A DNA stretch of 64,000 nucleotides from Tubulanus polymorphus (GCF_964204645.1 NC_134026.1:9695950-9759949); one strand, 5' to 3'. Counted from the first letter of the stretch, positions 342 through 63,410 are shown. A program made the numbers and translations. Notes: generated by a model not told the origin, from the sequence alone.

Positions 342-548
342 AAGTCACCCAAACCACCAAAGGTTGTCAGAAAAGGTCCAGTGAGTGATGTTCAGAAAGA
401 CCGCTATGCACATTGGCCAGCCAAACTTCAGAAACGGGGACGTTGTAAGAACTGTACGGATGGATACACAGATACCGCCTGCGAAAAATGCAATGTCCGT
501 CTCTGTTTCAATGATAAGAGGAATTGTTATATGATGTATCATACATAA
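342..548 (+). pseudogene. piggyBac (PGBD3-like) transposase C-terminal cysteine-rich domain fragment
   Basis: Manual translation gives KGPVSDVQKDRYAHWPAKLQKRGRCKNCTDGYTDTACEKCNVRLCFNDKRNCYMMYHT*, which has the piggyBac CRD pattern (HWP..RCxxC..CxxCxxxLC..NC..YH). It has no ATG, so it is absent from the ORF track. Confidence 0.85.
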
Positions 549-690
549 ATGTACTGAAAAGGTGTCAGTTACAATAGAAAATTAATCTGTAGTGTGAATA
601 AAGTCTTGAATTGATGTCGTTTCAGTTCTCATCCAAGAGATATGTATCCTATTGCCTTTAATCCCACTTTTAAGTTCCGTCGATTTGACG

Positions 691-963
691 TCACATACAA
701 ACATCTACATTCAAAGAGCAAATATACAGGCAAACGTCCAATATTAACTGGACCTGTCCATTTACAATATTGTAAAACTATATGTGGATGATTATAGCCA
801 ACTATCTTTTACAATGTCAAAGTGCTGTTCAAATATTAGTGATATTTTATCATTTGGTACTGATGGAGAAAGTGCGTTAAGTGATGCTGACAATCAGTTT
901 ATCACACATGCTGTTCATTTGAGATGCACACGCCATTTCGAATCTCATTTGAAAAATCATATT
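691..963 (+). pseudogene. MULE (Mutator-like) transposase fragment
   Basis: TYKHL..TGKRPILTGPV followed by FGTDGESAL..F..AVHLRCTRH, matching the second catalytic Asp region and CxxH motif of MULE transposases. Confidence 0.7.
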
Positions 964-1764
964 TTACCTACGGAAGCTCCTAGGTTACATATGGGATAAT
1001 TTTTTCTCAATTTCCACAAGTCGAAATTCGACTTATTAATTATTACAATTTTTCCGCAAACCATTACGGTTTGTGCAAACCCGTTTAAAACAAATGCACC
1101 TATTGATAAATGAGGAGTGTTGATAGAGGAAATCCCCAGTAGATGGCGCCACATGCATACAGGACCAGAGAGTTCACTTCGTGGTTCTGTATTGTATTAG
1201 CGTAACAAAGTCACAATAGCTTTTGTGCAAATTATCATATCAAAGGGATTCCAGACAATTGTTGTTCGGTGTATGGATGTAGTAATCGAGGTGGACATTT
1301 ATTCCTAGTTGACAAGGATCACCGAAGATGAATGGATGCCGAATAAACACAGCATAGTCTGTACAAAACACTTTAAACCTGATGGTTATATACAGCTAGG
1401 TAAGCATAAAATTGAATAAAGATGAATGTTAATATAATGATTTTAAAATTTCTGGCTGTGTTGTAGGTAGCTAGGCTTAATTTTTATCTTTTATAGAAAA
1501 AACTGTTAAAAAATGTTAACTTTCATAATAATGGTTAACGATTGATAGAACACTACATAGAATACTACTGATTTCAAGTTCTAATTTATATTTATACTCA
1601 CTATTGTTGTTTATAATTACCCCCTAGTTTGCTTCACTTTTAATCTATTTTAGCGTGTAACTGTATCTACGTTAATTTTCCTTTAGTTTGTATCATCTCT
1701 GATTACTTGAATTAGTCTCTTTGTCTCTGAATTGTATATATATCTCATAATTTTTGTAGTTTCT

Positions 1765-1815
1765 CATTATTCCTGAAGATGACTATTAGGATATAGTCGA
1801 AACATTGAAATAAAC
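1765..1815 (+). ncRNA. Degenerate minimal hammerhead ribozyme core, typical of Penelope-like element pseudo-LTRs
   Basis: CTGAAGA (1773-1779), then stem GACTAT/ATAGTC (1781-1798), then GAAAC (1799-1803). Flanks TTATTC and GAAATAA give an imperfect stem I. Confidence 0.55.
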
Positions 1816-1817
1816 TA

Positions 1818-2473
1818 CCGTATTTTCCGGTGTACAAGTCGAACCGGTGTATAAGTCAAGGTCAAATTTTCAGTTTAAAAAGTTGTGCTAGGGCTATAGT
1901 CGGTGTATAAGTCGAGTCGCTTCTTCATAAGTTTACATATGTCACATTGAAAACAGTGCCGATGTCATTCTCATAGTAGTTGAGAGTATTTACCACTAAT
2001 TGCATTATTAAATCATTGGGATCTGTTGTTTCTAATATTAAATTACCGGATTAGTGCTCATTGTTTGTATCCATGTGTTGAATGTATAGTGTATACGTTG
2101 AATGCTGTAGCGCCTGTAGTCTATTATTAGACTGACTGTGTATTTTATTGGCACGCTGCCACAGCATCGCAGCTTATATAAACACTGTACAATGAATATA
2201 CGCGGTTTTCTTTCTCTTTTGATTTTTAACATTAGTTAATTTTGAAACATTTCCAAACTATAAGAAACTATTTTTATCAACATCCTAAACTCTAATTGGT
2301 ATATGAGTGTAGCCTAACATAAATTAATATTCCATTTCATCATGGCGACCTTGAACTCTAAACATCGTCAGTTTAAAACGATATCGAAAGTGTAGCCGGT
2401 GTATAAGTCGACCTACGTTTTTTGGACATGATTTTTGGTCTCAAAAACTCGACTTATACACCAGAAAATACGG
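1818..2473. mobile_element. Tc1/mariner-pogo type MITE
   Basis: TIRs CCGTATTTTCCGGTGTACAAGTCG and CGACTTATACACCAGAAAATACGG, repeated GGTGTATAAGTCG subterminal motifs, TA on the left flank (TT on the right). Confidence 0.85.
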
Positions 2474-2824
2474 TTCTATCTCCAAGTTTCATTTTCGGAC
2501 TTTTTCGTCATAATTGTGGGATTCTCCTACATCTACGATAATGGTTAAATTTCTATATATCATACATACATTGGTCCTACACAGTATATATGATCTAATA
2601 CCACTAAAAGGCATTATTTGTTGTTGTATTGTAATGTTTTTTATTCAATCTACTTTTTTTGTTGATCTTTTATTTCCAGGTCAAAGAAAGAGGTTAATAT
2701 CAACAGCTATCCCTACCATTTTTGAATGGACCAAACCTGAACCCTAAGTGTCACTACCACAAGAGCACGATCGAGGAAGAGACTAGAATTCAACGACACC
2801 TCCTGTGGAAAACGAATCAACATA

Positions 2825-4225
2825 TGTTAGCATGTGCAGATGCCATCGGGATAAGTGGTTAGCAAGTGAGTGACCGAAAAATAAAGCAGTTTCTTATCAT
2901 CTGTAGAATGAACCCGTTGTGTTCTATTCTTTCTCTTACTTCTCATCGAACCTGGTTTTCTTCGTGACTCACAACTTCACATGACCAGGATCACCCGAAA
3001 CATGGAAGATACTCAACTGAACCGGCAGAAAGTGGATGATTTCGCGAAATCATCAAAAATCATCGAGGATTTACGAATGACCGAAGACATAGATTTGTCA
3101 AATATTTACACCGAGCAGATCACTAGAAAAGCTAGACTCGACGATCAAGGATCTAACTCCCTTAACTCATCTATCAGACATGATCCGGGAAGCAGAGGTC
3201 TAGCGTCATCGAAAAATGCAGCCAGATGATCAGATTCGTAGAAAAAACGACAAACACAACGCAACCACATAATTCGTCAATGAACAATTCTGGTGCTTCT
3301 GCGGTGTCATTTCGTTCGAACAATGTTAAGCGTAAGTCCAAAAGCTATTGGACTTACGTTTAAACTTACGCTCGCAAAGTTTGACAGCAATTTACTTTAA
3401 TGGCAGGAATTTATTGACGGATTTAATTCAGCGGTCAATGACGACCCAAATCTCGACGATGTCGTTAAGTTCCAATACTTTCACGCGCAACTTATCGGCG
3501 AAGCTTACCGAACGATTGAGGGACTGGCCCTCACCGTTTCAAATTATGCGAACGCGCTTTAAGTCCTAATAAAAAGGTATGGGCAACCGCAAATAATCAT
3601 CAGTGCATATATGCAGGCGTTATGGGAACTTACGTGACTGACAGAAGACATAGAGTCTCATGGAATTTTTGGAAAAACTCGAACCATATATCCAAGGACT
3701 AAAGGTTGGCTTATGTCGACAAGCAACGCGAAGCCTATCGACGCAAGTGGGTTAATCGTCGATTAGCGGCCTACAAGAGGCCGCCAGTTGCTGATCTATC
3801 TGTTCAACATAAGCCGGCTCGCGACGGCAATCTGACACCTACCAACTCGTCGCAAGCTGTATCCGGCCATCCATGTTCTACTCCGGCCTACAGTAGGCGG
3901 ACAGTTGCTTCTGACCGGAACCGACATAAGCTCATATGCGACGCGACGGAACTGAGCGCAAGGTTTCCAGCCAATAAGAAACAGCATATACAGTACAAGT
4001 TATGACGGCTAGTTAGCTTCATAAACTAAGTATTTCGAAACGTTAACCAAACCTTCAACACGGCAGGTGACTGGACTGAAGATCTAGAAGCGTAGTTGGT
4101 AGAATTATGGTGTGAGCAGCCTCTCGTAGGCCGCTAGTTGCCCCTAATCGGTGATAAACCCAGTTGTGTCGGTAGGCATCGCGTTGCTTGTCGACATAAG
4201 CCAGCCTTTACAGACACTTGGTCCT
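2825..4225 (+). mobile_element. BEL/Pao LTR retrotransposon 5' fragment (LTR remnant plus gag, DUF1759-like)
   Basis: TGTTAG...CA segment with AATAAA (about 2825-2945), then WQEFIDGFNSAVNDDPNLDDVVKFQYFHAQLIGEAYRTIEGL...RYGQPQIIISAYMQAL...YIQGL|QTLG, interrupted by a MITE. Confidence 0.8.
3702..4208. mobile_element. MITE with long TIRs inserted into BEL gag
   Basis: AAGGTTGGCTTATGTCGACAAGCAACGCGA and TCGCGTTGCTTGTCGACATAAGCCAGCCTT termini, flanked by TA on both sides. Removing it restores in-frame gag GLQTLG. Confidence 0.9.
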
Positions 4226-4747
4226 GCAGCATACGACTTAGATTATAGATACAGTAACTGTAAAAATCTATCCATGGAGGATCAGTTTTTTCTATCACCG
4301 ATTGGCGATATATAATTCACAGAGAACCGCCCGACAGCTACGGTTGTACCTGTTGTTGTATCAGTTTCTTATCTAAGTTGATGGTTACTTATGCATGGTT
4401 CCGTAAGTAAATTCCCTCTGTGTAGAAAAGGGAGTGCCAAAAATTTCATTTATTTATGAATTCCCTGAACGACTAGTTTACATGACCCGCAGTACCGGTG
4501 ATCATCGCCAAAGGCTGTTACTGCAGTCCGCAAAAAACTACGTCCAACTGGATTTTTTTTCGAATATGCAACGAAATTTCTCATTGATTCGATCAAATGA
4601 TACATTTCTTTATAATACGTAAAATTTACATGGATTCAGCATTTTTAAGAATAAATTCAATGATTCAGCGAAATTGATATAATAATCATCGTTTCAGCGA
4701 TACAGTGATTCAGCGATTCAGCGAAGTTCGAATGCCCGCCTTACAGG

Positions 4748-5830
4748 CTAACTCAGGAGAAGCCTATGACCTTGTGCACGACTTGTAGATATTGAATTTG
4801 TCACATCAGACAACATTAAGGGATTTCTCCCACCACCTCGCCCAACACCTGGATTTTTGACTGATTTCATCGAATTCATCAAGAAAGACATTGATCTGAC
4901 CAGCTTCGACCATTTGAAAAAAATTTTATAATTGCGTTCCATGAAATTAAAATCAAACAAGGACACACATATACGACTGAAACTGGCGAACTTATTGGGT
5001 TTATAAATTTTGGCAACTTTCTAAATGAGATTGAAGATTTAGATTCTGAAAATTCTGTAAGTGCAACCAAGGTTCAAGGGCCACATGTTACATCTTGTGG
5101 TCTGTGGCATATTTACCCATTTAAACACTGTTTTTGCATATTTTCTAAGTGCAGGCTTCACGAGTCAACAATTGTATGTTGCTGTATGGGAAGAAATTAA
5201 AATTCTAGAACTAAATGATTTTCATGTTAGAGGAGTCGTTTTGGACAGAGCAGCTCTGAACAGAGAATTGCACAGAATACACGGACATTGAAGAAAATGA
5301 TATATTCTATATACATTCTATATAAACGTATATTCTACCGACAATCAAGAGCGTATTGGATCCAATTTCTACTTTTTCTGCAATGTACCACATCTCCTGA
5401 AAACTAACAGAAACAATATCGAAAATTCTAATTGGCGCAACAAGACAAGAAACTTTGAGGAAACGTTGGTATTTTCTTTCATTGATAACATTTCGTTTAT
5501 CTAATAAAAATGCTTACTTATGTTTCACATGATTTTTGACCGCTATATTGTAAGCAATCCATACAACCACACTCGTCAAAGAAACGAGTATTTGAAGCCT
5601 TATACCAAAGATAACCTTGAGAGATAAGATGTAAGTATTGGTAGTGAATATGAAAATGATCAAAGATTGAAGGATGAATGGTAAGATATCAACTCCCTTT
5701 TCAGTGGCTGATTCATACCGTTTTTCGATTCACTGGAGTGTCTTAGGAGAATAGAAGTGCCGATTGATTATCGCAGGCAAATAATGTGTCTGAGTCATGA
5801 AACTCTAGGAGGAATTCAGATTCCATACAA
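4748..5830 (+). pseudogene. P-element/THAP9-like transposase remnant
   Basis: FHEIKIKQG...TGELIGF; HMLHLVVCGIFT...QLYVAVWEEIKILE..F.V..VVLDRAALNR; FFCNVPHLLKTNRNN (decayed DxxH motif). Frameshifted, probably with introns. Confidence 0.8.
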
Positions 5831-5844
5831 TTATATAGTAAAGC

Positions 5845-6295
5845 GGTATTTAAAGAACTTTTAAAGTTTGCCTCTTCTGGTATTTTCATGTATAACAATC
5901 ATTTGTTCCGTCAAGTGGATGGCGTCACCATGAGCAGCCCTCTAGGTCCCACGTTTGCAAATTTCTGCAAGCACACTTAGAAAACAGCTTATTGACTGAA
6001 TCAAAATTCAAGCCAGCTTTATACTTGAGATATGTAGATGATGTATTTTGTGTATTTAGAGACCACTCCACATATCCACAGTTCTTTCAACAATAAACTG
6101 TTTACATTCTTGTTTAGAATTCACTTATGAAATTGGTCCTAACATTCTACCGTTCTTTGACACTCAAATAGAGACTCCTTTAGAAATAGGTAAAAATTTC
6201 AAAATAAGTGTCTACCGAAAATGTTCAAATATGGGTCTTTTACTCAACTTTAATGCATTGTGTCCATTTAAGTGGAAAACTGGTTTAGTCTATTT
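5845..6295 (+). pseudogene. Penelope-like element reverse transcriptase fragment
   Basis: FMYNNHLFRQVDGVTMSSPLGPTFANF...YLRYVDDVFCVF...LPFFD...SVYRK..NMGLLLNFNALCP.KWKTGL. Confidence 0.9.
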
Positions 6296-6739
6296 AGTCA
6301 ATATGCTAACCCGAAAACGTTCGACTAATTAAACATGATTTGGCAAATGAAACTGTTCTTTTATGGATTTTTAATCATCTGACCTCTCTACCGAGGATAT
6401 AAAGATTTGTACGGATTTATAAAGATTATTTTCTGAGTTATCTGAGGTGAATTACTCGGTGAAACTAGAAAATGGAAAGCATTTCAACGTGTGGCAACAG
6501 TGGAACCAGTCAAACAACCACCACCAATCCTGATGGAAACGATACCAATGATGCAGATCAATTTCCTCATGGAAAAATGAGTCAGGAGTCTGAATCGACT
6601 AAAAATCAGGTGTAATTGAAATTATTTTTAAGAAGAGTCTCAAAAATGATATCATTATTCATATTTTGTGTTTTGTCATGCTAGTATTGAGCTTTTGGTT
6701 GGCTGTAGAATATCAGACGACAGGAAAAGATCAGATCAG

Positions 6740-8074: not shown

Positions 8075-8300
8075 AAGGGGCCAATGTTTTAGCGCTAGAC
8101 TTCATGTCATCAGAGAAAAGTGATGCTGAGGATCAATCGATGAGGATTTAAGTACAATTTTTGTGGAGTCAAACAGACTGTCGAAAGCCAAATGTAATTT
8201 GGATTGTACCAATAAAAACTCTCTCCATTCACATTTAGCAATGCTTCTAGTTGAGCCAACCACAAAGGAAGGAGTCGCATGCGATGAAATCCCTAAAAAC
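8075..8300 (+). pseudogene. Possible fragment of a C14orf93/DUF4616-like protein
   Basis: VLALDFMSSEKSDAE...ESNRLSKAKCNLD resembles the MSxExD...xRSxxL...LD motif. Recognised from memory only. Confidence 0.3.
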
Positions 8301-8521
8301 ATTCTAATATCTCTACTTTACTTCCTGATGACAATACAGCACCTAAGTATCTTCAAGTATATTTCATTGACAACCGAGAGGCTCAGCTCCAAAGCCGTGT
8401 GTCTATTTTCAATGACTACAGACCAGATATATTGGGCAAACTGTATCCAATTATGAGTGAACAAACTGAAGAACTATTAGCAGATGACAATTCAATGGGT
8501 GGCGAACCTTAAAAACCAAAC

Positions 8522-8875
8522 ATGATAGTCAATGAATTTCTATGCTTTTGTATGAACAGCAAGAAAACTGATCCATTAAATATGGTGAGAGACATGTGTG
8601 AAAGTTTCTATGATATATCAGCTATAGAGTTTGCGAAGAAAGCCCTGTTCACCTGCATTGATAAGCGTTGGAATATAAGAAAAGGCCAAGGTGCGGAGAA
8701 GAAACACATGGAAGATATTTTGCAAGTATTATTGACTATTGATGCAGACAAGCTACCTTACTTGGTGGCTTTGAACTTGGATAATATCCCTTCTGCTATA
8801 GGGAAAGCGCCTGATATTAACTCTTTAATGAAGGAAATAAAGAAAATTAACCAAATAAATATCGGTCACAACTAA
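8522..8875 (+). pseudogene. CR1-group LINE ORF1 N-terminal fragment
   Basis: IVNEFLCF...C.SFY...I..AKK.LF...RKG...EDI...LP.LVA.NL.NIP pattern, characteristic of invertebrate CR1 ORF1. Confidence 0.75.
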
Positions 8876-9558
8876 TGCAACACAAGATCATCTTATAAAA
8901 GAAATCGCTCCAGCAGGGAACAATTATGTTGGAGCTTCCCCAGATGGACTTTTGTCCTGTGACTGTTGCGGACAGGGTGTTCTCAAAATAAAATGCCCCT
9001 ACTGCAAGGCGAACAAAACAATAATGGATCAACTGGTGACAAGCATTTTTGTTTGGAGACTGTTTATAATCTAACACGTCTAAAGGGAGATTATCAGTAT
9101 TACATCAGGTTCAATGCCTATGGCTATAACGGGCAGAAACTATTGCAACTAGAGTGTGGACTGGAAGAAGCTATTTGTAGAATGAATGCTATGTGACAAT
9201 GAATTTTTCTTCAGATAAGTTTCCACAGTTACCGACTTATATTTCGTGCATTTTACCAGAGTAACTGGGCAAATATTTCACCGACATTCATGTTCTTACA
9301 GAGACAACAAACAGTAATGATGCCACTGTGAATATTTGTATTTGTCAGGTCGACTTTCCGACAAATATTTTGTTCGCATCCAGAGCGCAAAATGAAATAA
9401 ATCAAATTAACATAAATATCTTAAACATTACATTAATTCTTATTCTGACTTAACCACTGAAGTAGATGCGTTACAGAGAGAGTTACAGGCAATTTTCACA
9501 ATTTTTTCCATTGTAGTCATAGTTGATGTTACACTCGTTTGGAGTACATTATATTACT

Positions 9559-10412: not shown

Positions 10413-12268
10413 ATCACTGCATTGGGGGTAAGTCACCCCTCAATGACGCTCGGAATTAAACTATTTTTGCGTTTTGATTTCCCAGAAAACGTATAACCCA
10501 GAATAAAACCTGCCCGGAAAACCTGGAGTCAAAAATCCTGGAGGGTATCATGGGTGAGGGTTGGATGGGATTCGTGGGTGTTTGATATTTGGGCAGAGAT
10601 ATTATGATTCGGATTAATCAACACTAGTATGCAGTTTTCGAAAAAACGCCAAATATAGGCTAAACTAGAAACCATAAACCTGACTTAATGTTTGCATTAG
10701 TGGACATTGTAGTATGAAAACCATTGTTGTGCGGGTGCGAACAAAACAACTTTATTTTCCTTTAACTAAACAAAGTTCAACAACAAATAACAAAGAATTC
10801 TTTAAAATGCTAATTTTGGCTTTTGAACTGTTTTTACGAACAGAATATTGACAAAAAGCGATACGGAAAGGACACAAACTATGGAAATTGACAATCATTT
10901 ACTCCTGTTTAAATCCGTAGTAATTGAGATTTGCGTGCGCACAGAACGAAAAAATGAAAACAGTACTGATAATATGGGTATCTTTTATCTGAAATCAGCA
11001 GCTCATAAAACCTAATTTTGACAGTGAATTGGCATCGACCTAATGTGGAGAATCGCCAACGAAAAAAGAGGCATCGATATATCGATAGTACGGATTGGCA
11101 CCATCGGAGAAGGAAGGAGTTGGTGAGACAGAAATCATCAATTTTATGCTTTCTATACACACATATCATATTGACGGCAATTGGATCTCCTTCGCTGATG
11201 CCGAGTCGCGGTGTCGTAATGCAAGGGAGGATATTGTCCAGTTCCGTGTCCTTTTAATATCACTATAACCTGAACATTTTTCCCATTTTATTTTGAATTC
11301 GTGACATCTAATAAGGATGCAATAATTCATTGAACAACACAAAGAAAATCATAAGTATTTTGAATCAAGTGTTGAAATAAATTCGAATTCAGTGATGGTG
11401 AAACCAATGATCACTTAACGACAATGCTGTGCCCTGAAACCTATGAAAGATCAAGGTAATTGATTGAAGCCAGTCAACCAAAGCTATCATATTTGGTTTC
11501 AAAAATATCAGAAATTTTTGATAGCCCTTTACATGTGTCATGCGTTTTTTTTCAGTTAACGAGAAGAATCAGAACATAAAGAGATTCAAAAATAAAGATC
11601 ATAGTAAATATTAATAGGCCTAACTATTGTGGTATGGGAACCTTTGCTAACTTTTCTGTTCTTCTTCTATGACATCACCAACGCGGCTGAGGGTGAATTT
11701 GAATTGTGTCATAAATAAGGAGAAAAAAGCCGATAAAAACTAAGTACATGGAAGATAGTTAGACGTCAAATACAACCAAATGGAATACGAGCTACTGGGA
11801 GTGGATGAACTGTATATTGCAACTGATAATTCCCGTGAGTTATTCCCCTTAAAACTTGGTTGTTAAATTCGTGAGGGAACAAAGAAGAGCAATCCAACAA
11901 TGCAGACAATGGTTTGTCGAAATCAAACAATATGTCGAGGCACAATTACGCGCTACACTGAAATCAGAAAGAACGCTCGGATGCAGAGGAAGTAGATATC
12001 CGCAAAACAGGGAACTTACTCCTAAAAAGCCTTGTAAATCGAAAAAGTAAAACTAGATTTTAAATCGTCACTGCATCGAGGGAATGTCGCCCCTCAATGA
12101 CGGTTGGAAATACACTTCGAAAGATTTAGGATGCAGAACATGAAACCTGGAATAAAAAATCCCGGAGGGTATTATCGGTGATAGTGGGTGGGAGATTATG
12201 GATGTGGGAGATTATGGGTGTTGCATATTTGGCCAGACGTATTATGATCCTGATTCATTGATGCTAGA
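10413..12268 (+). repeat. Two diverged direct copies of an unclassified ~200-bp repeat (10413-10628 and 12067-12268)
   Basis: Both share TCACTGCAT..GGG...GTC.CCCCTCAATGACG, AAAAATCC.GGAGGGTAT and ATATTTGG.CAGA..TATTATGAT...CTAG. Confidence 0.75.
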
Positions 12269-12274
12269 ATTAGG

Positions 12275-15680: not shown

Positions 15681-16013
15681 TAGTTTTTGATCTGGCTGGC
15701 AACAAGGCAACTTGACCGTATTTTCAGATCCTGAAGATCGTCGTCTTACTTGTTTTTATTTTGGACTTTCGAAATAATGCCTTTACTTTCATGGCACCAA
15801 CTTTATGGAATGTCTTACCACAGGAAATTCGTGAAAGTCCAACTGTCTCATGTTTTAAATCACGTTTAAAAACTTTTCATTTTAGAAACCTGTACAATTA
15901 GTGTTTTAATCTGCTTCTGTCTTAAATGTTTTAATAATGTGAAGTGCAATGATTATGTTTTATAGAAATGCGCTTTATAAGTAAATAAATTATTATTATT
16001 TTTATTATTATTA
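15681..16013 (+). mobile_element. L2-type LINE 3' end
   Basis: AFTFMAPTLWNVLPQEIRESPTVSCFKSRLKTF, then a 3' UTR with GTGAAGTGC..TGCGCTTTATAA and a (TTA)n tail. Confidence 0.85.
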
Positions 16014-30385: not shown

Positions 30386-30390
30386 AATAT

Positions 30391-51100: not shown

Positions 51101-51836
51101 TCATCTAAAGTCTCAATTTTCCCTTCCAGGGTATCTGAAATACCCGTGTTATTCCGACTATCCTTTTCAACGTTAGAACGAAATTCCCTTTCCACAGATT
51201 CTAACGTTTGAACCTCACTTTTCTCCACCCCTGTTAAGTCATAATAATAATAGTCTAACGCCCTAGATTTCAAATACATGGGAAACGCTGCAAACCGCTT
51301 TTTCTGCGACCACCCACCAAAATCAGCCCGTGCCTTGAAAGCCCTGTCAAAGCTTTCCGTAGCTCCCCCACTGAACGAAATGTCCGGATTAAAAGCCAGG
51401 CGGTCGGACCCATCCGCCAACGCGTTCAGTTGCACCTGCATGCCTCGCAACATAGCCTGCAGGTCCGTCGGGTCTACATTCGCTGGGGTGGGCATAACTG
51501 GTACAGCCGCCGTGCCACCCTCCTGACTCATCAGACCAACCACACCATTCCCCAAAACACAGATCGGTACATTCATAGTTTTTTCAATTTTACATTCAAA
51601 CTTACGTACACAGAGCCGGGTTCTCCACCAGTGAAACGGTTTTGTCTTTGAATCGAGTTGTTCTTCCCTGTTCGAGTGAGTAGTTCTCTTCGGGGTGTTT
51701 CCTATGGAATACGATGCAAGTAACGAAAAACAGTTGATTTAGTATATCTGCTTATCGTTTATTCTTCCGGTGTTCTCTCCGATGAGTGTCACCCGCAATA
51801 TAACAAAAAGGGGGAGTACAAAGGGATTTCTACACA

Positions 51837-52480
51837 TCAAAGATCTGAATCTAGCTTCTGTTTAAATCTGATTTCTGCACTCACACGTTGTTTATCAATA
51901 GCTAGTTGTTCCTTCATCTTCTGCATATTTGCTTCTAAGCCGTGTTGTGAAGCAGCAGCATCAATACAACGAGAAACTAGATTGCTGCTTGTAGTACTAC
52001 TAGTTTGACTAGCAGAGTCATCTGGGTGAATTTCATTAATAACTGGGGACATCGGCCACGTTTTGTTCTCTTTCGGGGGATACGGAACAGTTTCTTGCAT
52101 ATCACTCAGCTGACCTTGTCCTTGTATCTCTTCAATTTCATTCTGTAATATTCTTCGTGTTGTTTCTGAGGTATTCATCGTTCTTAATTCTTACTTGTAG
52201 CCGTGTTTAAACTGTAAACTTTGGATGTTGACGATCAGACTTGACGAAGATTCAAGGCTTCATTTTTCAGACATCATTCATAACCAGTAGATACATACAG
52301 CGTTTAGTACTGTTACATAACAACGAGACAGCGAGAGAGGTTTCTACAAAGAGAACCGCAATAAACCTAACTTAATACATATCTTAGCATACATTAGAAT
52401 TATCTTGTAGAGAAAAAAAAACTATAGTAAATAATATTTCAGTAATATTTTCTACTTACAAACACGTAAAGCTTATGTCA
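51837..52480 (-). mobile_element. BEL/Pao 5' region and gag N-terminus (likely the same element as 44680-45646)
   Basis: EIHPDDSASQTSSTTSS followed by a coiled coil, typical of BEL gag N-termini. Lies directly beyond the Gypsy 5' LTR. Confidence 0.7.
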
Positions 52481-52489
52481 TCTTTAGAA

Positions 52490-53622
52490 TATGCTGAAAC
52501 TTTTAACACAGAAAACTAACAGACTTTCATCCCTCCATGTTTCTTTATGTAGGTGGCAGCCCTTCCGGGAATCGTATTTTACACATGTCAACAGGTGTTT
52601 TTTTTTGTATCTACCTCGTTCGATTTTTAAAATGTGATTAGAGGTACGTAGCCATGCATATGTAGATACCAAGGAGTTATCAGCACTCTAGATCTAATAC
52701 TTTGAGTAGGTAACGTATTCGGCCATCAAAAGATTTATCATGATTATCCATAATACATTTACCAGAAAGCCTATTAAGGCCTTCTTGTTGCTATTATTAA
52801 TGGAGAGCCAATATTTCATAGAGAGCGAATAGCAGTAATACTCAAAGGTAATCTGCCAAGATCAGCCTTAGTGGCCTAAGTTGGCGGCCTTTCTATTAAT
52901 GCCCAAGATGTATTTACAGAATTTTGTATGTATGGAAGAAGGCTTCATATAGGTTTTCCAGTTTGAAACTGTCGGTACTTTTAAAAGCAGATTGGACATT
53001 CGAGTGAAATACGGACGACAGTTCGGCAGCATATAATAATATTGGTTTTAGACATACATCAAACAATTTTAGTAATAAAGCTGCATTACAATTATAAGAC
53101 TGGAATTTGTTTCTTAACATAAAGGTCACCTTTAGGGCCTTTTGACCTAGAGACTCGACCCATAGATGTAAGAGCCTGATGCCGACAAGACCAAAATGAG
53201 GTATTTATATCTTTGAATAATGGCGAGTACTTGGTTATCAAAATAGAAATTGTTACCCTTATTATTGAGAGCTTTGCTATTTTTGTTGAAGATCATTATT
53301 TAAGTCTTAGATATATTAATCTCGAGTTTCCATGTCCTATAAAAGTGCTCAAGTTTATTCAGACATGATTGAAGACCATTTTTGACCGAGATATAAGCAC
53401 TAGGTCATCTGCGCACATGATGACACTTATAGTTTTGTCATGGATTTGGACGGGGTCACAGCAATCATGTCTAAGGTACAATGGTAAGTCGTTAATAAAC
53501 AAGTAAAACAAGGGACTGATGAAACACCCTCGTTTTAGACCGAGGGCTGAAGGGATACATTTTGTGATCCCATTTGGGAGCTAAACAGAATAATTTACTG
53601 AGCTATACATATTTTTTAATAT
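52490..53622 (-). pseudogene. CR1/L2-group LINE ORF2 RT and C-terminal remnant
   Basis: GCFISPLFYLFINDL...CADDLVLIS...GLQSCLNKL...W.LEINISKT...YKYL...KLFD...KPILLYAAE...SNHILKIERGRY. Confidence 0.9.
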
Positions 53623-53940: not shown

Positions 53941-54125
53941 CTCGTGTTTGTGGTCATTCGTAGAATTACCATCAAACTTCACCTCACACAGGTAAGTCTC
54001 GTTTAATTGTATAATTCTACTCATTCCCACAATTCCCTCCGAATTCTACGAGATTTCAAAGCAAAAAATTCATTTTGTCTAAACCAACGGTTCATACCGA
54101 TTGTCCTGCAGACAAAACAACCCTC

Positions 54126-54677
54126 GCTAGCGTATCCTCAGATGTTCTGACTATTGGTTTATTATAAAAGCGTGCAAACGTATCTTCGCATGACCATCCG
54201 ACCGCATTCATGATTGTGTTAATCGGAACCTGAGCAGCCACAGCAGCAGAAGCCATAGCCGCTCGAGTCGAATGACTTCCATATCTAGAAGTATCTAATC
54301 CTGCTTCATGCTAGCGTATCCTCAGATGTTCTGACTATTGGTTTATTATAAAAGCGTGCAAACGTATCTTCGCACGACCATCCGACACCATTCATGATTG
54401 TATTAATTGGAACCTGAGCAGCCGCAGCAGCAGAAGCCATAGCCGCTCGAGTGGAATGACTTCCATATCTAGAAGTACCTAATCCTGCTACATGCTAGAG
54501 TATCCTCAGATGTTCTGACTATTGGTTTATTATAAAAGCGTGCAAACGTATCTTCGCACGACCATCCGACCGCATTCATGATTGTATTAATCGGAACCTG
54601 AGCAGCCACAGCAGCAGAAGCCATAGCCGCTCGAGTCGAATGACTTCCATATCTAGAAGTATCTAATCCTGCTTCAG
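54126..54677 (-). repeat. Three tandem 184-bp copies of the YR C-terminus
   Basis: Unit starts GCTAG.GTATCCTCAGATG at 54126, 54310 and 54494. Confidence 0.95.
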
Positions 54678-55275
54678 ACATAACTTCTCTTATCCACGAC
54701 GAGATCATATCTCCAGATACCCCCGGATGAGGCCTGATACAACCGATAAATAATTGATCGCAACTCCCACGAATGGGAAAAGTTACATGTAAATATCTAG
54801 AAAAACATTCAACCACACAAATCTTGTCGTCCGCAGTATATTTGTGAAACTGAATCGGTTTAATCACGTTCCCCGGTCTAAAGTGTTTCTCTATAACCTT
54901 AGAAAAAATAATACGATCCTCCGACAACTTCATATCTGATAAAGATAGTTGATGAAGAACATTTCTTCCACGTTTGCCTGAAATTAACGCCATAAGCATA
55001 ACTGTTTTCTTTGCTAACTGCCGTAATGATAAGTTCTGTAACGGCGACTTTGTACGTAAATAATCTAGTACAATTCGTACATCCCAAATTTCTGAAAACT
55101 TCGGTGAAGGAGTCCGTTGTTCGAAAACCCCTTTCATAAACCGTTTCACTAATTTATTCGTTCCAACATCCTCTCGGTCCGAAGCCAAACTGAATGTTGA
55201 TACTGCTGACCTAGCAGTTCCGCTCGCACTGTACGACAGGCCTTTGTTATACAAAGAAACCAGAAATTCTATCAA
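54469..55275 (-). CDS. DIRS-type tyrosine recombinase (5'-truncated, 268 aa)
   Basis: EFL..L..KGLSYS..TARSAVS...LVKRFMKGVF..R..P...WDV..VL.YL; catalytic R (SGKR), HSTR, GWS and FARFY. Confidence 0.92.
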   Translation of the reverse strand: MIEFLVSLYNKGLSYSASGTARSAVSTFSLASDREDVGTNKLVKRFMKGVFEQRTPSPKFSEIWDVRIVLDYLRTKSPLQNLSLRQLAKKTVMLMALISGKRGRNVLHQLSLSDMKLSEDRIIFSKVIEKHFRPGNVIKPIQFHKYTADDKICVVECFSRYLHVTFPIRGSCDQLFIGCIRPHPGVSGDMISSWIREVMSEAGLDTSRYGSHSTRAAMASAAVAAQVPINTIMNAVGWSCEDTFARFYNKPIVRTSEDTLACSRIRYF

Positions 55276-55289
55276 CCTTACAGGCGAAG

Positions 55290-56660
55290 GATTGTGATTG
55301 AAGTTAATTGTGGTAACTTATAACCAGTGTTGTGGGTCGCAATAACTGTTGACCAGGGATGGCTTAGGGCTGAGACAAGACCGGGAACCTGAGAGAGTAA
55401 CAAGTCCAAACACGTTGTAATGTAAGCTTTCGTTGGCGTTTGGTGTTTTGCCCTTTGAAAGTCGCCTGAGCAAAGCTTCATCCGAAACTCTAGTATTAAT
55501 TGGCACCATAGCTGAAGCAACATCATGAGCTAAGGGATTTCTGTGATTGTCCTTATGTGATCCAGTTTGTTGATCATTGGCCATTGCCTTATGCCAAAAA
55601 CACCATAATTCTGCTCCCGACGGACATCACATGTGATGAGGGTCATCATCTGTACTAGCACAGTATAGCAGACTAGCCCATATTACTGCTCTCATACTAT
55701 CCGGATTACCTATATTGGCTAGGACTGCTCCCCTGTAATAATTTTGGAAGGTTTTGGCCTTCGCGGCAGTCCGACGACCAAAACCTTTACCGCCAAGTTT
55801 CTCCTTTTTAGACAGTTCTCTGAGTGCCTTGCCAACGCGTTTATGTGTATGGTTCACACAGTCGTCTTTTGTTATAGGGTTATCGTCCCCATATGGATTC
55901 AAGGCCACTATATCATCGTACGCATTAGAATCGCTGTCACATAACATTGTTGTATACCTAAAGTTATTTTCTTATGATCGTGGCCATAAACGCAAGGCAG
56001 CTTCCCGTTCCATCGCATTAGAAATGCCATCATAATTCTTGCAGCAATTGTCGTATGATTGAAACCAAGTTTTGAATTCGTCGGAGTCCTTTGATTTGAA
56101 TTTATTTTCATGACTTGCACAGGACTGGCAATAATTTGAAAGTACTTCATAATCAATGACCAGTCCTGTCAATAAATCTATCACACAACCGATTCCATAG
56201 TGTTATAAATGGCCTCTAGTCAGCCACGAACCGTCAAAACTAACATCTATATCATAAACACTATCCACAGAAAGTGAGGGGTCCAGATCAAGGTACGCAA
56301 TTTTAACAAATTCCTTGGCATCATTTAAAATTTTTTCTGTTGTCTGAAGGGTATTGTTACTTATAGAATTGGATATTGTTTGATAAGATTTCTGGTGCAA
56401 GTTATGACATGAAAACACAGCTGAAAATTTTTCAAGAGCCGCATGTCCTAGGCCGAGTTCATGTGCAAATAACACCATTAATTTATTTACAGCAAATCCG
56501 ACACGACTGTCATTAGAATTGCCCTCCTTGGGTGATGAAAAATCGGCAGAGATAATGTTATTGCAAGATCTACAAAAAAGTTCTATTCTGTTACAGAACC
56601 CTATCTTGCGAGCAGATTTTCTAAACACTAAATCCATTTCGTTACAATTTGTACATGATA
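55290..56660 (-). pseudogene. Kolobok (Hydra-type; Pfam 'Mutator-like') transposase remnant
   Basis: CxxC..CxxC N-terminus, VSFDGSWLTRGH, TGLVIDYEVLS.YC..C, KNYDG.S.AME, RYTTMLCDSDS, DCVNHTHKRVG, LGGKG, STDDDPHH..CP..WC and GKTPNANESLH. Several frameshifts. Confidence 0.8.
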
Positions 56661-57570
56661 AATTATACAATTAAACGAGACTTACCTGTGTAAGGTGAAG
56701 TTTGATGGTAATTCTACGAATGACCACAAACACGAGGAATCATATGACAATGACAAATTATATAACACGATGGCGGGCCCAAGTCTAGGGTGGGCGTATA
56801 ATTCCTCGTGTTTGTGTTCATTCGTAGAATTACCATCAAACTTCACCTTACACAGGTAAGTCTCGTTTAATTGTATAATTCTACTCATTCCCACAATTCC
56901 CTCCGAATTCTACGAGATTTCAAAGCAAAAAATTCATTTTGTCTAAACCAACGGTTCATACCGATTGTCCTGCAGACAAAACCTCGCTAGCGTATCCTCA
57001 GATGTTCTGACTATTGGTTTATTATAAAAGCGTGCAAACATATCTTCGCATGACCATCCGACCGCATTCATGATTGTGTTAATCGGAACCTGAGCAGCCA
57101 CAGCAGCAGAAGCCATAGCCGCTCGAGTCGAATGACTTCCATATCTAGAAGTATCTAATCCTGCTTCATGCTAGCGTATCCTCAGATGTTCCGACTATTG
57201 GTTTATTATAAAAGCGTGCAAATGTATCTTCGCACGACCATCCGACCGCATTCATGATTGTATTAATCAGAAGCTTAGCAGCCACAGCAGCAGAAGCCAT
57301 AGCCGCTCGAGTCGAATGACTTCCATATCTAGAAGTATCTAATCTTGCTTCATGCTAGCGTATCCTCAGATGTTCTGACTATTGGTTTATTATAAAAGCG
57401 TGCAAACGTATCTTCGCACGACCATCCGACCGCATTCATGATTGTATTAATCGGAACCTGAGCAGCCACAGCAGCAGAAGCCATAGCCGCTCGAGTCGAA
57501 TGACTTCCATATCTAGAAGTATCTAATCCTGCTTCAGACATAACTTCTCTTATCCACGAGGAGATCGTAT
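56661..57570 (-). mobile_element. DIRS1-like 3' end (copy B) with complete terminal inverted structure and three 184-bp YR repeats
   Basis: 80-bp inverted arms (56661-56740 and 56801-56880) around a 60-bp loop. 56804-57567 is nearly identical to 53941-54707. Repeat units start at 56986, 57170 and 57354. Confidence 0.9.
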
Positions 57571-57668
57571 TGCAGACAAAACATGAAGCCTTGATGGCCG
57601 TTTACAAAAACATTATAGCAATCACAATTGAAACATAATAATGATATGCCGGTACAACTTAAGTTTAA

Positions 57669-58720: not shown

Positions 58721-59056
58721 TAACTGATTAATTATCCAAATATTGTAAACATGGCAACTGAAAAAATAACAATTACATAAAACGTCAAGTGCTTACAGCA
58801 TCTGAGACAGTTGCGCTTAAGTTACGACAATGACGAAAAAGCTTGATTTGGAATGACACTTGCACACTGTGGTTTAAATTTATTTCCACCAGCTGCAAGA
58901 ATAGGCAAAGGAATTGAAGACCGTAGTGACCAGTTCATTCCACGAATAATAGCTGGAAAGAAAGTAATCAAAATAAATAGTCGTACACATAAGTGTAAAG
59001 CAGCCCCTTACTAACAACTTAGGCTTTCCATTGTCTCTATTCACTACATTTAGGGC

Positions 59057-59580
59057 TTATTGATGGGTTTCGTCGTCAGACGAACCCATCTATGGCATCG
59101 TCGTCATGTCTGTCTGTCTGTCTGTCTGTGGATGTTTCTTTATGACACGATTTAAGCTGTTTGTGTGGACCGAAAATTCTGTAATTTCACACAGGTATTC
59201 TCTACTTGATGTAGATGGTGCAGCTTGGTTTATATTTGATTCCGATGGTTATATGTGCTCTAATTTGGTTAAAAGATAATTAACGTTACTCGCTAGTTCA
59301 AGCCGCTGTATAGCGCGTTGCTACGACGACGCTCGATCAACATACTGGTACTCGCTGTGTAATACTGAACACGTATACACCTGTAGATATTGATCGTACT
59401 AGCACCGGTTTTAGATAGCGCGCGCTGATCGGTCTTAACACTTCTCGGAACTGCTGTGCTAAATGCTGAGAGGCCGAATCTATGCGCAATCATTTATTGG
59501 GCTCGTCACATTTGATAGTGAATGGATAAATAACCGGTGTCAATGACGGTCGCTACTCCCCATCAGTATAACTCATCAGT
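59057..59580. mobile_element. HINE/DINE-1-like element
   Basis: Terminal hairpin GATGGGTTTCGTC-GTCA-GACGAACCCATC, (TGTC)n microsatellite, and CCCATC repeated at the far end. Confidence 0.65.
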
Positions 59581-62546
59581 ATAAGAAATAATTCTTTCGA
59601 GTTTTTTTTTTCAATCCCCGAAGTTGTTGTTACTATGTTGACCTTGCCGTTTTATAAGCTTACCGATGATTCTTCTAGTATTTTCAGGGTCACAAGACAT
59701 GACGAAGTCGCAAAGTTTTGTACAAATTTCACGAAACAAACAATTATTTAGGCGGCACCTGATCTATTGATTAATTATGATAAATAATGTTTATTTCATT
59801 AAAAATTTGTTTTATTCAAACACTACTTTCATCGCACATAGCGTGATCGGTAGGCCCTACTATTCTACGGTAGGCCATGGACTCTTTCATGTGGTAGGCC
59901 TATTACAAATGATACAATCCGCGTGTCCGTGAATAAGTGACACGTGGTGGGGCGGGTTGTGAGGAGCATCGAAACTAATCCGACACAAATAATAGATAGA
60001 AAACAATACCTTTAGAGGTTAACTTTTATTAACATTATTACCAAATCAAAACCTGCACATCCTATCAAAAATAGAAATTCTAAGAATTTATTTCAAAGAA
60101 TAATAAATTACGTCTAAATATTGGGATTCGAACTCGTAGCATCGATTCAGGTGCCTTTTCCAAAAGCGGGTATCCCGCGGGGAAAACCCATTACTATTTA
60201 TATCGAGAATCGCCTTTTTGACAGCGAGTTCGGTGAATGAAACAGAAACAATTACACAGAAACCCATCATGGAAAGTTTCTTTCTGGTTCTAGGTGTATC
60301 CCCCAAAAAAGTTAGGGAAAGTAGCTAGCCAACAATGATCATTGCTTCACCGAGTACTCATTTGCTACCATATGTACTAATATTATAAAGAAATTATGTA
60401 AAACATTCCCTGGTTAACGGATTCTCACCTTATATTACGTAAAAACTGCTGTCGTTGTCATCGATCCGAGTCGTCGAGTGAACGCGGAAGTAAATTTCCG
60501 TATGAAAATTCCTACTATTTCTGTCCATATTACGATGAATCGAGCCAGAAATCTTCAGGAAATGTAGCCAACGTAAATTGATTTACGAATAGAATTAACC
60601 AATTGACTCATTTTAAGGATCATGGTTTCGTGAAATTCATTAAGGTCCTAAAACTCGCGATAAATTTAAGCCGAAAATGATTTCAACCATCCGCCATGTT
60701 TCATTCATAAGACACTTATTACGCACCGGCTGTAGTTATCGTTCGTGGGAAATGACGGATCCGGACTAATTGTAAGTCCGATTCTGTGATTTACGGTTGA
60801 CTCAAGGTCGTGCGGTAAATTTTAGGCTTTTCGGGGTGCACTTTTATCAATGGATGACGATTCTTTGCGTTATTCTTGTCGCTGTTTAGACCCGGTAATT
60901 ATGCGGGATTAATTGATAATAGATTACTATACGCAAATTCGAAATGGTCAGGCGCTGAGTTATATTTCTGACAGAATTTAAACTTACGTTTATAAGCTGT
61001 TGGTAGTCGAATCTGAGAGGAGTTACATTTTATGAAAAATTTTTGGCTGGAAGGTGGACCATAAATAATAATAAATATAGCTGCCAAGCAGCGATGACGG
61101 GTTTTCTGCAAAGCCATTCAGAAAGATGGGAATTGTAGTAAATTGAAATATCGATACATAGAATAAAATGCATTGACAGATTCGAACCTAATATGCTACC
61201 ACTGTGTAAACATCAAATATGATTCAGCTTTGAAACCGAACATACGCAGACGTACAATCAACAAATATTAATTCATTTGACCAGGCATTTATTTTGGCAT
61301 TCAAACATCATGATACTGTATTATCACCATACTTAAAAATGGATCTGTCCTATTAAGAACTCATCTTAAGCACCTGCTGAGTCGATAGATTGAGTGAATT
61401 TACAGATAAGAACGTATTATGATTTAGAATAGATTTAAGAAGTTAATGTTTTTATTGAAATATTTGAATAAATACATTTATTGTAGTGTAGATTCAATCA
61501 ATAAATTATGAATTGATCTGGTTTGGGTTTCCGGCTGATGTTGATTTTGGCTTTTATGGATTACAAATTCTATAGTGATAAACAACTGATACCTGCAACA
61601 TGTGTGTAAATCAAACCTATTCCACTAGTTGCGTGTGTTTCCTAATAAACGGGAGAGTCACTCTTGATCTGAGTTATTAGAAAAATAATGTTCATTTAGT
61701 TATAGAAATTCATTGCCATTTTGGAAATTCTGTAATAATATTTGTTCTGTCCTAATTTATATTACTGTATGAACCAATGATATGCTTTGTAAATATGATG
61801 TAATAAAATAAATTTGAATTTGAATTAAATTTGAACATGAGAATCAAGCATAACTTGTGTTTTTTCAACTTGTCTTTTGTTAACAGTTCCAGAGTTTCAA
61901 TTACAATCAAATCCAAATTGGCTAAAAAGTACATAAGACTAAATGAAATGAACCGTTAGTTACTGCAAACCTATTCCAGTGTTATGTCGATCGTGTTGAA
62001 TCACTTTCCTTGAGTTGAAAGAATCAGATCTTCTATGGTGCAACATCGGTCGAAGAGAGATAACTTGGTGTTGACGGTCCTTGACCATCTAACTTCATGC
62101 GTTTGACATTGGAATCAGCATCATACCCATTTGAACTGCAAAATATTCATACAACATGAAAACCTACAGTACATGTATACAGTAATCAAAATTTCACCGA
62201 TGTTGGATATTTGAATGAACGTTGGGCTTATTTCAGTATTCTAAAGCAGGAAATAATAAGCCCAATCAATAGGCCCTATTCCCATTGGAACAATTGTATA
62301 ATTCGTACGCTATACTGTACACTTATCAGTCAAGAATGGAGAAATCGGTATACCAAACCTACGAACAGCAAAATGTACAGGCCTCAAAATGTACAGGCCT
62401 ACAATGATTTCTGGTATACAAGCCGTGACCACATGAACGTTTTGGTTTGACTATTAATGTCAGCAGGTCAGAGAAGGCCTGGCCAAATTTAATCACATGG
62501 CTCAAATCGATTAGCCTTTCTGCGTGTGAATACTTCACTGTATTGT

Positions 62547-62700
62547 GGGATCATTCATTGATTACGTACGAGGGGGAGGGGTCAGGGCAATTACGTACTG
62601 TAATGCTTAATGTACATGAAAAAATGGCAGATTTTGCGTACAGAGGGAGAGGGGGTTGAAATAATCAAATTTTATGCGTACGTAATAAATGAATGATCCC
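62547..62700. mobile_element. 154-bp PIF/Harbinger-type MITE
   Basis: TIRs GGGATCATTCATTGATTACGTACG and CGTACGTAATAAATGAATGATCCC with a 3-bp TSD TGT. Confidence 0.9.
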
Positions 62701-62839
62701 TGTTTTAAAAATAGGCCTATCGAGTGAATTAGTACATAGACTGAATTAGACTTTAGGCTAGTCCTGGCCAAATCCTATCCATGTTATAATTGCACCAGTT
62801 ATAGTAACATCACTGTAGGGCCGACGAGAGGGAAAAAGT

Positions 62840-63410
62840 TGTGTTTGTAGTACATAGGCGTGGTTTTGGCAGTTTTTTAGACAATTCACTTCCAACAGTA
62901 CTGAAATATTTACAAAATGCATTACTTATTGTTGATTTGTTTTTACATAATACGCCGTCTACCTTAAAAATATCAGGGACACAGTCTTTATTATGAGATT
63001 TTCCCAACACATCTTTCATGGTAGCCCAGAGTTTACGGCTATTGTTTTTGAACTTTAATAATTTATTACTATAAATTGCTGTTTTGCTGCCCTTTAAGCG
63101 GTGTTATAAGTATTTCTATAAGCCACATACAATTTATAGCGTGGGTGACTTTTATCTAAACAAACCTATTATGGTCTTGTACAGGGAATTACATTTTCGA
63201 GCAGAATTTAAAAGGGTCTGTGTCATCCATGGTTCGCGAATGTTATGGTGTTTGAGTTTAACAATTTCTTCTGGTGCATAATAATCAATAATACGCGTTA
63301 GATTATCATTAAAGTACACATATGCAGCATTAACATCTAGCTGATTTATCGGTGACCAATCGGTCACCAAAATAGCACGGTTGATAAAATTTATATTTAC
63401 AATTTTTCTT
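62840..63410 (-). pseudogene. CR1/L2-group LINE ORF2 linker (between APE and RT)
   Basis: DWS...DVN.AY..F...L..IID.YAP...EPWMT..LLNS.RK.N.LYK...KNNSRKLW...ISNAFCKYFSTVG. Confidence 0.85.

What the first reader, a model, noticed from the sequence alone, without database searches (positions are those of the whole stretch)
342..63410. Window-wide transposon orientation switch: candidate bidirectional antisense piRNA (transposon-trap) cluster
Seen: by my manual count about 15 orientable remnants between 0.3 and 27 kb are all on + (piggyBac x2, MULE, THAP, hammerhead, BEL gag, P transposase, Penelope RT, CR1 ORF1, Gypsy INT, Gypsy gag, L2 tail, SAP gene, Helitron x2). About 13 between 30.4 and 63.4 kb are on - (piggyBac, hAT, cargo gene, BEL INT, BEL gag x2, Ngaro RT, Gypsy, solo LTR, LINE x2, DIRS x2, Kolobok). 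The only clear exception is an 85-bp RTE tail. The same superfamilies (piggyBac, BEL, Gypsy, CR1/L2) flip sign across the switch, and nested younger insertions follow the rule too. Established: uni-strand piRNA clusters such as Drosophila flamenco accumulate TE fragments antisense to their transcription, and divergent bidirectional clusters exist in animals. Inference: transcripts diverging from about 27-30 kb would be antisense to almost every element on both arms, so this may be an undescribed master locus of transposon immunity.
Basis: partly seen in the sequence, partly recalled or inferred. Interest (0 to 1): 0.88.

Follow-up and report, generated by a model that had tools for sequence, protein, structure and literature searches.

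The report
Back-to-back antisense transposon traps, ribbon worm
In this 64-kb stretch of a likely ribbon-worm genome, broken jumping genes of many unrelated kinds nearly all point towards one central spot, a layout that would let two RNAs running outwards from that spot yield transposon-silencing small RNAs (piRNAs), though no RNA data were available to show that they do.

Summary
The strand switch is real. A two-strand Pfam scan gives 15 of 15 elements on + left of 20.2 kb and on - right of 30.4 kb (change-point P=9e-4). Adding motif-called remnants gives 23 of 24 coding remnants (P about 8e-5; 25.5 kb inward against 61 bases outward), and 7 of 8 rolling-circle elements follow. The flip lies between 27.2 and 29.3 kb, around a single-copy stretch at about 27.8-28.2 kb. 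The arms are not inverted copies of each other, and no host exon was detected on the outward strands. Best reading (0.55): two uni-strand piRNA precursors transcribed outwards from a central promoter. This is untested: no RNA run, small-RNA run or genome was available. Rivals are divergent long non-piRNA transcripts, or one polarised cluster cut by an inversion or misjoin. Antisense-packed uni-strand clusters (slug, fly) and bidirectional pairs (mammals) are each published. This scan already holds 90 notes with the words piRNA/flamenco in at least 16 genomes, including one mirror-image pair. Only the combination, TE-dense arms of all classes back to back, was not found in my searches. 'Master locus' is unsupported.

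The parts
342..545 (+). piggyBac C-terminal cysteine-rich remnant
   Evidence: tblastn to the piggyBac end at 20,010-20,171, E 8e-4; no Pfam hit
748..996 (+). MULE transposase fragment
   Evidence: recalled motif only (translation); no Pfam hit
1206..5501 (+). THAP domain plus P-type transposase, probably one element with nested insertions
   Evidence: THAP E 0.012; TNP-like RNaseH_N E 8e-6
1773..1805 (+). hammerhead-like core
   Evidence: pattern with paired helix II; no Rfam hit
3401..3600 (+). BEL/Pao gag fragment
   Evidence: DUF1759 E 1.9e-11
5801..6329 (+). Penelope-type RT fragment
   Evidence: recalled motif incl. YVDD; no Pfam or PDB hit
8297..9193 (+). YqaJ-domain remnant interrupted by a 120-aa ORF (8,513-8,872) resembling a CR1-type ORF1
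   Evidence: YqaJ E 0.004; ORF1 label recalled, no homologue found
12203..15674 (+). Gypsy integrase and downstream ORF remnants
   Evidence: rve E 0.003; tblastn to the right-arm Gypsy, E 7e-39
15770..16010 (+). L2-type ORF2 C-terminus and tail
   Evidence: translation and ATT tail; family label recalled
16210..17250 (+). Gypsy gag
   Evidence: zf-CCHC E 3.8e-5; tblastn to 51.4 kb, E 1e-17
18057..18590 (+). SAP-domain gene remnant
   Evidence: SAP E 5e-6
18651..20170 (+). piggyBac transposase; last Pfam-called element of the left arm
   Evidence: DDE_Tnp_1_7 on four ORFs, best E 2.7e-17
21446..22350 (+). Helitron 5' end followed by exon-like pieces; 3' end not found
   Evidence: 80% match to the Helitron start at 26,316
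23285..23360 (+). HINE-like 5' end (subTIR, IR, microsatellite)
   Evidence: orientation convention from PMC7492417
26316..27210 (+). non-autonomous Helitron (5' TC, 3' hairpin and CTAG); last orientable + element
   Evidence: defining ends from PMC4067079
27211..29304 (.). switch zone: inverted-repeat elements around a single-copy stretch at about 27.8-28.2 kb; inferred site of a bidirectional promoter
   Evidence: depth 35-40 in X1 at 27,845-28,184 against hundreds to thousands in neighbouring bins; no MYB-site excess
29305..30394 (-). high-copy HINE-like element; first orientable - element; same family and orientation at 57,667-58,731 and 61,073
   Evidence: depth up to 38,955 in X1
30394..31650 (-). 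3'-truncated piggyBac, at single-copy depth in run X1
   Evidence: DDE_Tnp_1_7 E 3e-52; depth 38-66
32215..32300 (+). RTE-type 3' tail: exception to the rule
   Evidence: translation and TGA-repeat tail; family label recalled
32832..35925 (-). hAT element with terminal inverted repeats and a 646-aa ORF
   Evidence: DUF4371 E 5.5e-28; ends
36037..40012 (-). multi-exon gene remnant with a CUE domain (probable TE cargo), holding a complete HINE at 37,700-37,990 on -
   Evidence: CUE E 2.9e-5; no homologue found for one exon; HINE structure
41924..44117 (-). BEL/Pao integrase region and gag knuckle
   Evidence: DUF5641 E 8e-4; zf-CCHC_4 E 0.012
44047..44406 (-). RT fragment (Ngaro/DIRS type by recalled motif)
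   Evidence: RVT_1 E 0.017; no homologue
44634..52190 (-). BEL gag (44,634-45,679; probable N-terminus at 51,840-52,190) with a Gypsy element (45.9-51.8 kb) nested in the same orientation
   Evidence: DUF1759, rve, Integrase_H2C2, RT_RNaseH, RVT_1, protease; N-terminus label recalled
52487..53622 (-). LINE RT fragment
   Evidence: 594 relatives; tblastn E 5e-35
53941..57601 (-). tyrosine-recombinase element end, duplicated at 97%, with a Mutator/Kolobok-type transposase (55,321-56,670) between the copies
   Evidence: Phage_integrase E 1e-4, PF20700 E 1e-11; repeats
59056..59130 (+). HINE-like 5' end with GTCT microsatellite: second exception
   Evidence: convention
62813..63430 (-). LINE endonuclease-RT linker remnant
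   Evidence: recalled motif only; no hit

Best explanation
Transposon remnants of many unrelated classes point inwards from both sides towards a centre at 27.2-29.3 kb, and the locus is likely a back-to-back pair of uni-strand piRNA precursors that would be transcribed outwards from that centre. Shown: the polarity, the place of the flip, its reach across DNA transposons, LTR, non-LTR, recombinase and rolling-circle elements, and nested insertions that keep it. Inferred: a bidirectional promoter in or near the single-copy stretch at about 27.8-28.2 kb; two long RNAs cut into 25-29 nt piRNAs; retention of antisense insertions because they add silencing guides, and loss of sense insertions because their poly(A) and splice signals would cut the precursor short.
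For: 15 of 15 Pfam-called elements and 23 of 24 coding remnants follow the rule; 25,522 coding bases inward against 61 outward; 0 TE domains in 256 contrary-strand or central short ORFs. Cut-and-paste transposons with symmetrical ends obey it too, which points to selection on a transcript rather than to insertion chemistry (inference). No host exon was detected on the outward strands. AATAAA is at Markov expectation outward (29 vs 25.9; 30 vs 32.9) and about 1.6-fold above it inward. A top slug cluster has this antisense-packed layout with piRNAs (PMC11615739 section 9); loci picked by strand bias in Drosophila produced piRNAs where tested (PMC10643416 section 8); a nemertean makes 25-29 nt piRNAs (PMC11114477 section 7). 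CpG o/e outside coding parts is 0.88-1.27 at 22.8-30.4 kb against 0.70-0.74 in the adjoining arms, weakly like an unmethylated centre.
Against: No transcript, start site or small RNA was observed. No MYB-site excess in the central single-copy stretch (27-28% of 500-bp windows have as many). The poly(A)-signal asymmetry fades when TE coding parts are masked (53 vs 39, P=0.21), so it is not independent. After masking the inward strand is still G-rich (P=0.004), the reverse of the transcription-linked skew I recall for outward transcription in vertebrates; unmasked TE sequence may explain it. CpG o/e is also high at the window's ends (1.10 and 0.95). Short non-coding elements give two clear and three doubtful exceptions. 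No contig bridges the switch. The bias is stronger than in verified moth uni-strand clusters (57% of insertions, 80% of bases; PMC5844692), which may point to a further cause.
Confidence: 0.55

Rival explanations
1. The arms are long first introns or bodies of two divergent host genes or lncRNAs; sense insertions are purged because they disturb processing, and no piRNAs are made.
For: Antisense bias of intronic LINEs and LTR elements is established in mammals (PMC3088655, passages). It needs the same central divergent promoter, and coding exons could lie beyond the window.
Against: No exon hit on the outward strands among the ORFs scanned. At an assumed intronic bias of 70%, 22 of 22 has P 4e-4; at 90%, 0.10. 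5' splice-site motifs are rarer on the outward strands (24 vs 48; masked 16 vs 34). About 40% of the window is TE coding remnant.
Confidence: 0.17
2. One uniformly oriented (uni-strand) cluster was cut in two by an inversion or an assembly misjoin, or two unrelated polarised loci were brought together; the centre is then a breakpoint and not a promoter.
For: No single contig spans from the last + element to the first - element; pieces break at inverted-repeat elements. The piggyBac at 30.4 kb lacks its 3' part.
Against: X1 contigs match the window exactly over 27,420-28,769 (three overlapping pieces) and 28,902-29,379 at even depth 35-40. No inverted homology between the arms and no element split across the centre was seen. 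Each arm is polarised on its own (12 of 12, P 5e-4; 11 of 12, P 0.006), so a strand-selecting cause is needed anyway.
Confidence: 0.15
3. Chance plus non-independent nesting: elements insert into each other in the same orientation, and a scan of many windows picks an extreme case.
For: The window was chosen after the fact from a very large scan; Gypsy-in-BEL nesting and the duplicated recombinase end show that not all events are independent; no genome background was available.
Against: P between 2.5e-6 and 9e-4 after merging obvious non-independent pieces; oyster HINEs are found in both orientations genome-wide (PMC7492417), yet 5 of 6 follow the rule here.
Confidence: 0.06
4. An insertion bias tied to replication direction, or to converging read-through from flanking genes, orients the elements without selection for antisense RNA.
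For: GC skew changes sign at the centre, and part of it remains after masking.
Against: piggyBac, hAT, P and LTR integration use symmetrical ends and have no known strong fork polarity (recalled); the skew mostly tracks TE coding strands.
Confidence: 0.07

Closest known systems
Uni-strand piRNA clusters of slugs (Arion vulgaris, PMC11615739 section 9 read; Deroceras laeve, PMC12506671 passages read)
   Same: [quoted passage not shown]
   Different: piRNAs are shown there and not here; the passages I read describe one-directional clusters, not back-to-back pairs.
Drosophila flamenco and flam-like clusters (PMC10643416, passages and section 8 read)
   Same: Strong TE strand bias; such loci can be found from sequence polarity alone.
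   Different: [quoted passage not shown]
Bidirectional pachytene piRNA cluster pairs of mammals (PMC11615739, PMC4408798, PMC4105748; passages read)
   Same: Two uni-strand arms on opposite strands with polarity switching at a central promoter.
   Different: Tupaia clusters are TE-depleted and have A-MYB sites near the centre; this locus is TE-dense and shows no MYB-site excess.
Trichoplusia ni uni-strand clusters (PMC5844692, passages read)
   Same: Antisense enrichment of insertions attributed to selection.
   Different: Much weaker bias (57.1% of insertions, 79.7% of TE bases) than 23 of 24 remnants and 99.8% of coding bases here.

Membership tests
uni-strand (flamenco-like) piRNA cluster | dense TE fragments of many families | tested here: met
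   about 40% of the window is TE coding remnant; most bins of 27.2-32.2 kb outside the piggyBac are high-copy repeats
uni-strand (flamenco-like) piRNA cluster | fragments share one orientation within each arm | tested here: met
   12 of 12 left, 11 of 12 right coding remnants; Pfam
uni-strand (flamenco-like) piRNA cluster | abundant uniquely mapping 24-32 nt 1U reads from one strand | not testable with these tools
   no small-RNA run served
uni-strand (flamenco-like) piRNA cluster | long precursor antisense to the TEs | not testable with these tools
   no run on record as RNA; contigs cannot show strand
Drosophila flam-like cluster, strict sense | strand bias confined to Gypsy elements | tested here: not met
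   all classes are biased here; criterion from PMC10643416
bidirectional piRNA cluster pair (mammalian pachytene type) | polarity switches once at a central point | tested here: met
   met for TE polarity only, switch at 27.2-29.3 kb; piRNA polarity not seen
bidirectional piRNA cluster pair (mammalian pachytene type) | shared central promoter with divergent start sites | not testable with these tools
   only indirect signs: single-copy stretch, CpG o/e 1.12 from 20 CpGs
bidirectional piRNA cluster pair (mammalian pachytene type) | A-MYB sites near the centre | tested here: not met
   2-3 YAACNG-type sites in 27,780-28,280, reached by 27-28% of windows; motif recalled; need not apply to an invertebrate
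introns of divergent host genes | host exons on the outward strands | tested here: inconclusive
   none detected by Pfam; short, non-coding or out-of-window exons would be missed

The most novel reading that the evidence does not exclude
A single central promoter drives two long antisense precursors whose arms have kept remnants of nearly every transposon class of the genome, DNA transposons and rolling-circle elements included, at over 95% polarity. It would join the mammalian bidirectional layout with flamenco-type content in a spiralian, and be a major piRNA source that can be mapped from sequence polarity alone.
Probability: 0.3. Interest if true: 0.65.

Novelty: new variant of a known kind. 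Interest (0 to 1): 0.45.

Why it matters
If confirmed, it would be a piRNA cluster mapped in a phylum for which my searches found no cluster map, and a clean natural test of the trap model: two arms under one promoter let selection for antisense insertions be told from regional effects, and the flip narrows the promoter to about 2 kb. That DNA transposons and non-autonomous rolling-circle elements obey the polarity, unlike in flamenco-type clusters, would say that the precursor selects on any polar signal and not only on retroviral targets. The parts are each known, and the scan has found many one-armed candidates, so the surprise is moderate.

Tried and rejected
No RNA holder listed; this says nothing on expression. 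Runs X2-X4 scale with X1 over repeats like DNA and showed no informative splice joint; only 27.2-32.2 kb was laid, so the rest of the window has no read check. Rfam: 0 hits at gathering score, 0 and 3 chance-level hits at E up to 1. Giant palindrome or inverted duplication rejected: no inverted DNA match between arms. MYB, CRE and NRF1 motif scans showed nothing special at the centre; the one CRE nearby lies inside a Helitron. Homologue searches for the cargo-gene exon, the Ngaro-type RT and the CR1-like ORF1 found nothing (weak evidence by the tool's own note); PDB searches gave nothing meaningful; the Atlas was unavailable. Weak non-TE Pfam hits on contrary strands (6 of 256 short ORFs at E 0.005-0.05; PARP/Ctr on a CT microsatellite; DUF2827 over a BEL frame) were treated as chance, since 7 of 240 expected-strand short ORFs gave similar non-TE hits. 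Literature searches for a TE-dense bidirectional cluster in an invertebrate returned no such description in the listings; the library lacks most subscription papers, and I did not read supplements, where cluster tables of PMC11615739, PMC12506671 and PMC6128900 may list such pairs. Earlier-finding searches for a bidirectional case gave 0 full matches.
Full report
Setting. The window is eukaryotic, 34-44% GC, without N. An earlier AI note on the same genome calls it a ribbon worm; I did not test this.

Independent annotation. I cut all six frames into stop-free ORFs and scanned all 407 of 50 aa or more against Pfam. Every TE-type domain left of 20.2 kb is on +: BEL gag, P-type transposase, YqaJ, Gypsy integrase, Gypsy gag knuckle, SAP, piggyBac. 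Every one right of 30.4 kb is on -: piggyBac, hAT, BEL gag, a Gypsy pol series, LINE RT, tyrosine recombinase, Mutator/Kolobok-type transposase. To look for exceptions I scanned 256 short ORFs on the contrary strand or in the centre, outside known coding parts: no TE domain. The matching 240 expected-strand ORFs gave THAP (+, left) and the BEL domain DUF5641 (-, right). 150 LINE proteins found with the 53-kb RT fragment hit only the - strand on the right. With separate elements counted once, 15 of 15 fit one change point (exact P 9.2e-4; 3.2e-3 for 13 without YqaJ and SAP).

Fuller count. Adding remnants read by motif from translations (labels recalled, not confirmed) and the weak RT hit at 44.0-44.4 kb gives 12 coding remnants on + at left and 11 on - at right, with one exception, an RTE-type tail at about 32.2 kb: P about 8e-5, and 25,522 against 61 coding bases (the cargo gene is not in the base count). 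Rolling-circle elements can be oriented from their ends (PMC4067079 and PMC7492417, passages). Two Helitrons and one HINE-like end on the left are +; four HINE-like elements on the right are -, and one at 59.06 kb is +. With these and the hammerhead-like core at 1,773 the count is 31 of 33 (P 2.5e-6), or 31 of 36 if three doubtful short elements count against (P 3e-4).

The switch. The last orientable + element ends at 27,210 and the first - element begins at 29,305. Between them lie inverted-repeat elements and one single-copy stretch at about 27.8-28.2 kb, at depth 35-40 in run X1 while neighbouring bins reach hundreds to thousands. X1 contigs match the window exactly over 27,420-28,769 in three overlapping pieces and over 28,902-29,379, but none bridges a + element to a - element. 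The arms share no inverted DNA; related families on the two arms are only 34-62% alike as protein, so they are separate insertions and not a mirror duplication. One 110-bp repeat lies in the same orientation on both arms (9.8 and 36.6 kb).

Signals of transcription. None is direct. Four runs hold the stretch, none on record as RNA. AATAAA is rarer on the outward strands (59 vs 94, P 0.009), but the difference fades after masking TE coding parts (39 vs 53, P 0.21); 5' splice-site motifs are also rarer outward (24 vs 48; masked 16 vs 34). Both follow from the TE orientation itself, so they describe outward strands poor in stop and splice signals but do not prove that they are read. CpG o/e outside coding parts is higher at 22.8-30.4 kb (0.88-1.27) than in the adjoining arms (0.70-0.74), but also high at the window ends. 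MYB-type sites are not enriched at the centre. A residual G excess on the inward strand does not favour outward transcription.

Mechanism. Elements with unrelated insertion chemistries flip at one place, which is best explained by selection acting through transcripts that start there (inference). Two forms are possible: antisense copies are kept because they supply piRNAs, and sense copies are lost because they end or mis-splice a long RNA. Both act in a piRNA precursor; only the second acts in an ordinary gene or lncRNA. The TE density, the lack of detected outward exons and a polarity above what a 70% intronic bias would give (the 70% is my assumed value) favour the precursor. A nemertean expresses 25-29 nt piRNAs (PMC11114477 section 7). 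I put the back-to-back piRNA pair at 0.55, divergent non-piRNA transcripts at 0.17, an inverted or misjoined single cluster at 0.15, and chance or insertion bias at about 0.13 together.

Comparison. It works like the slug uni-strand cluster whose piRNAs come from the strand opposite densely packed fragments (PMC11615739 section 9) and like flam-like loci, which were found by strand bias and produced piRNAs where tested (PMC10643416), but the bias there is confined to Gypsy. Its two-armed shape matches mammalian bidirectional pairs, which in tupaia are TE-depleted with central A-MYB sites. Snail clusters are enriched for Gypsy, Kolobok and hAT elements (PMC6128900, passages), all present here. 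Membership of any piRNA cluster class is unproven, as the defining reads are missing. Of the other papers I saw only listings and abstract openings.

Novelty. The scan already holds 90 notes with the words piRNA cluster, flamenco, strand and transposon in at least 16 genomes, among them a mirror-image pair around a U2 array; these are unchecked AI notes. A TE-dense, all-class, back-to-back pair in an invertebrate did not turn up in my literature searches or in the scan's notes. I rate it a likely new variant of a known kind, of moderate interest, and directly testable with one small-RNA library.

Noticed in passing
window 53,941-57,601: A Mutator/Kolobok-type transposase lies between two 97% identical copies of a tyrosine-recombinase gene end, each with a 3 x 184-bp tandem; a 76-bp inverted repeat encloses recombinase and transposase, and an 84-bp-arm hairpin sits at 56,661-56,880. 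Could be nesting plus duplication or a composite element.
   Followed up: partly
window 36,037-40,012 (-): Multi-exon gene remnant with a CUE domain and an NRF1-like TGCGCATGCGCA just upstream (about 40,240); no homologue found for one exon. Probable TE cargo; a host gene is not excluded.
   Followed up: partly
window 30,394-31,650: The truncated piggyBac is at single-copy depth in run X1, so no copy over 90% alike seems to exist elsewhere in that sample: a relic of a rare or extinct family.
   Followed up: partly
window 24,723-25,567: Three 282-bp, CpG-rich tandem units (94% alike), possibly the central array of the HINE-like element starting at 23,285.
   Followed up: no
window 21,613-22,350 (+): Exon-like pieces with splice-like ends behind a Helitron 5' end; possibly a captured gene fragment; no Pfam hit.
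   Followed up: no
window 47,427-48,957: Internal duplications of 94-253 bp (96-98% alike) in the RNase H-integrase region of the Gypsy element.
   Followed up: no
window 12,900-15,674 (+) and 45,942-46,538 (-): Both Gypsy elements carry related sequence downstream of integrase (30-43% aa), possibly an envelope-like ORF; label not tested.
   Followed up: no
window 26,502: A CRE palindrome (TGACGTCA) in a CpG-rich patch inside the Helitron next to the switch; could act as a TE-donated promoter element.
   Followed up: no
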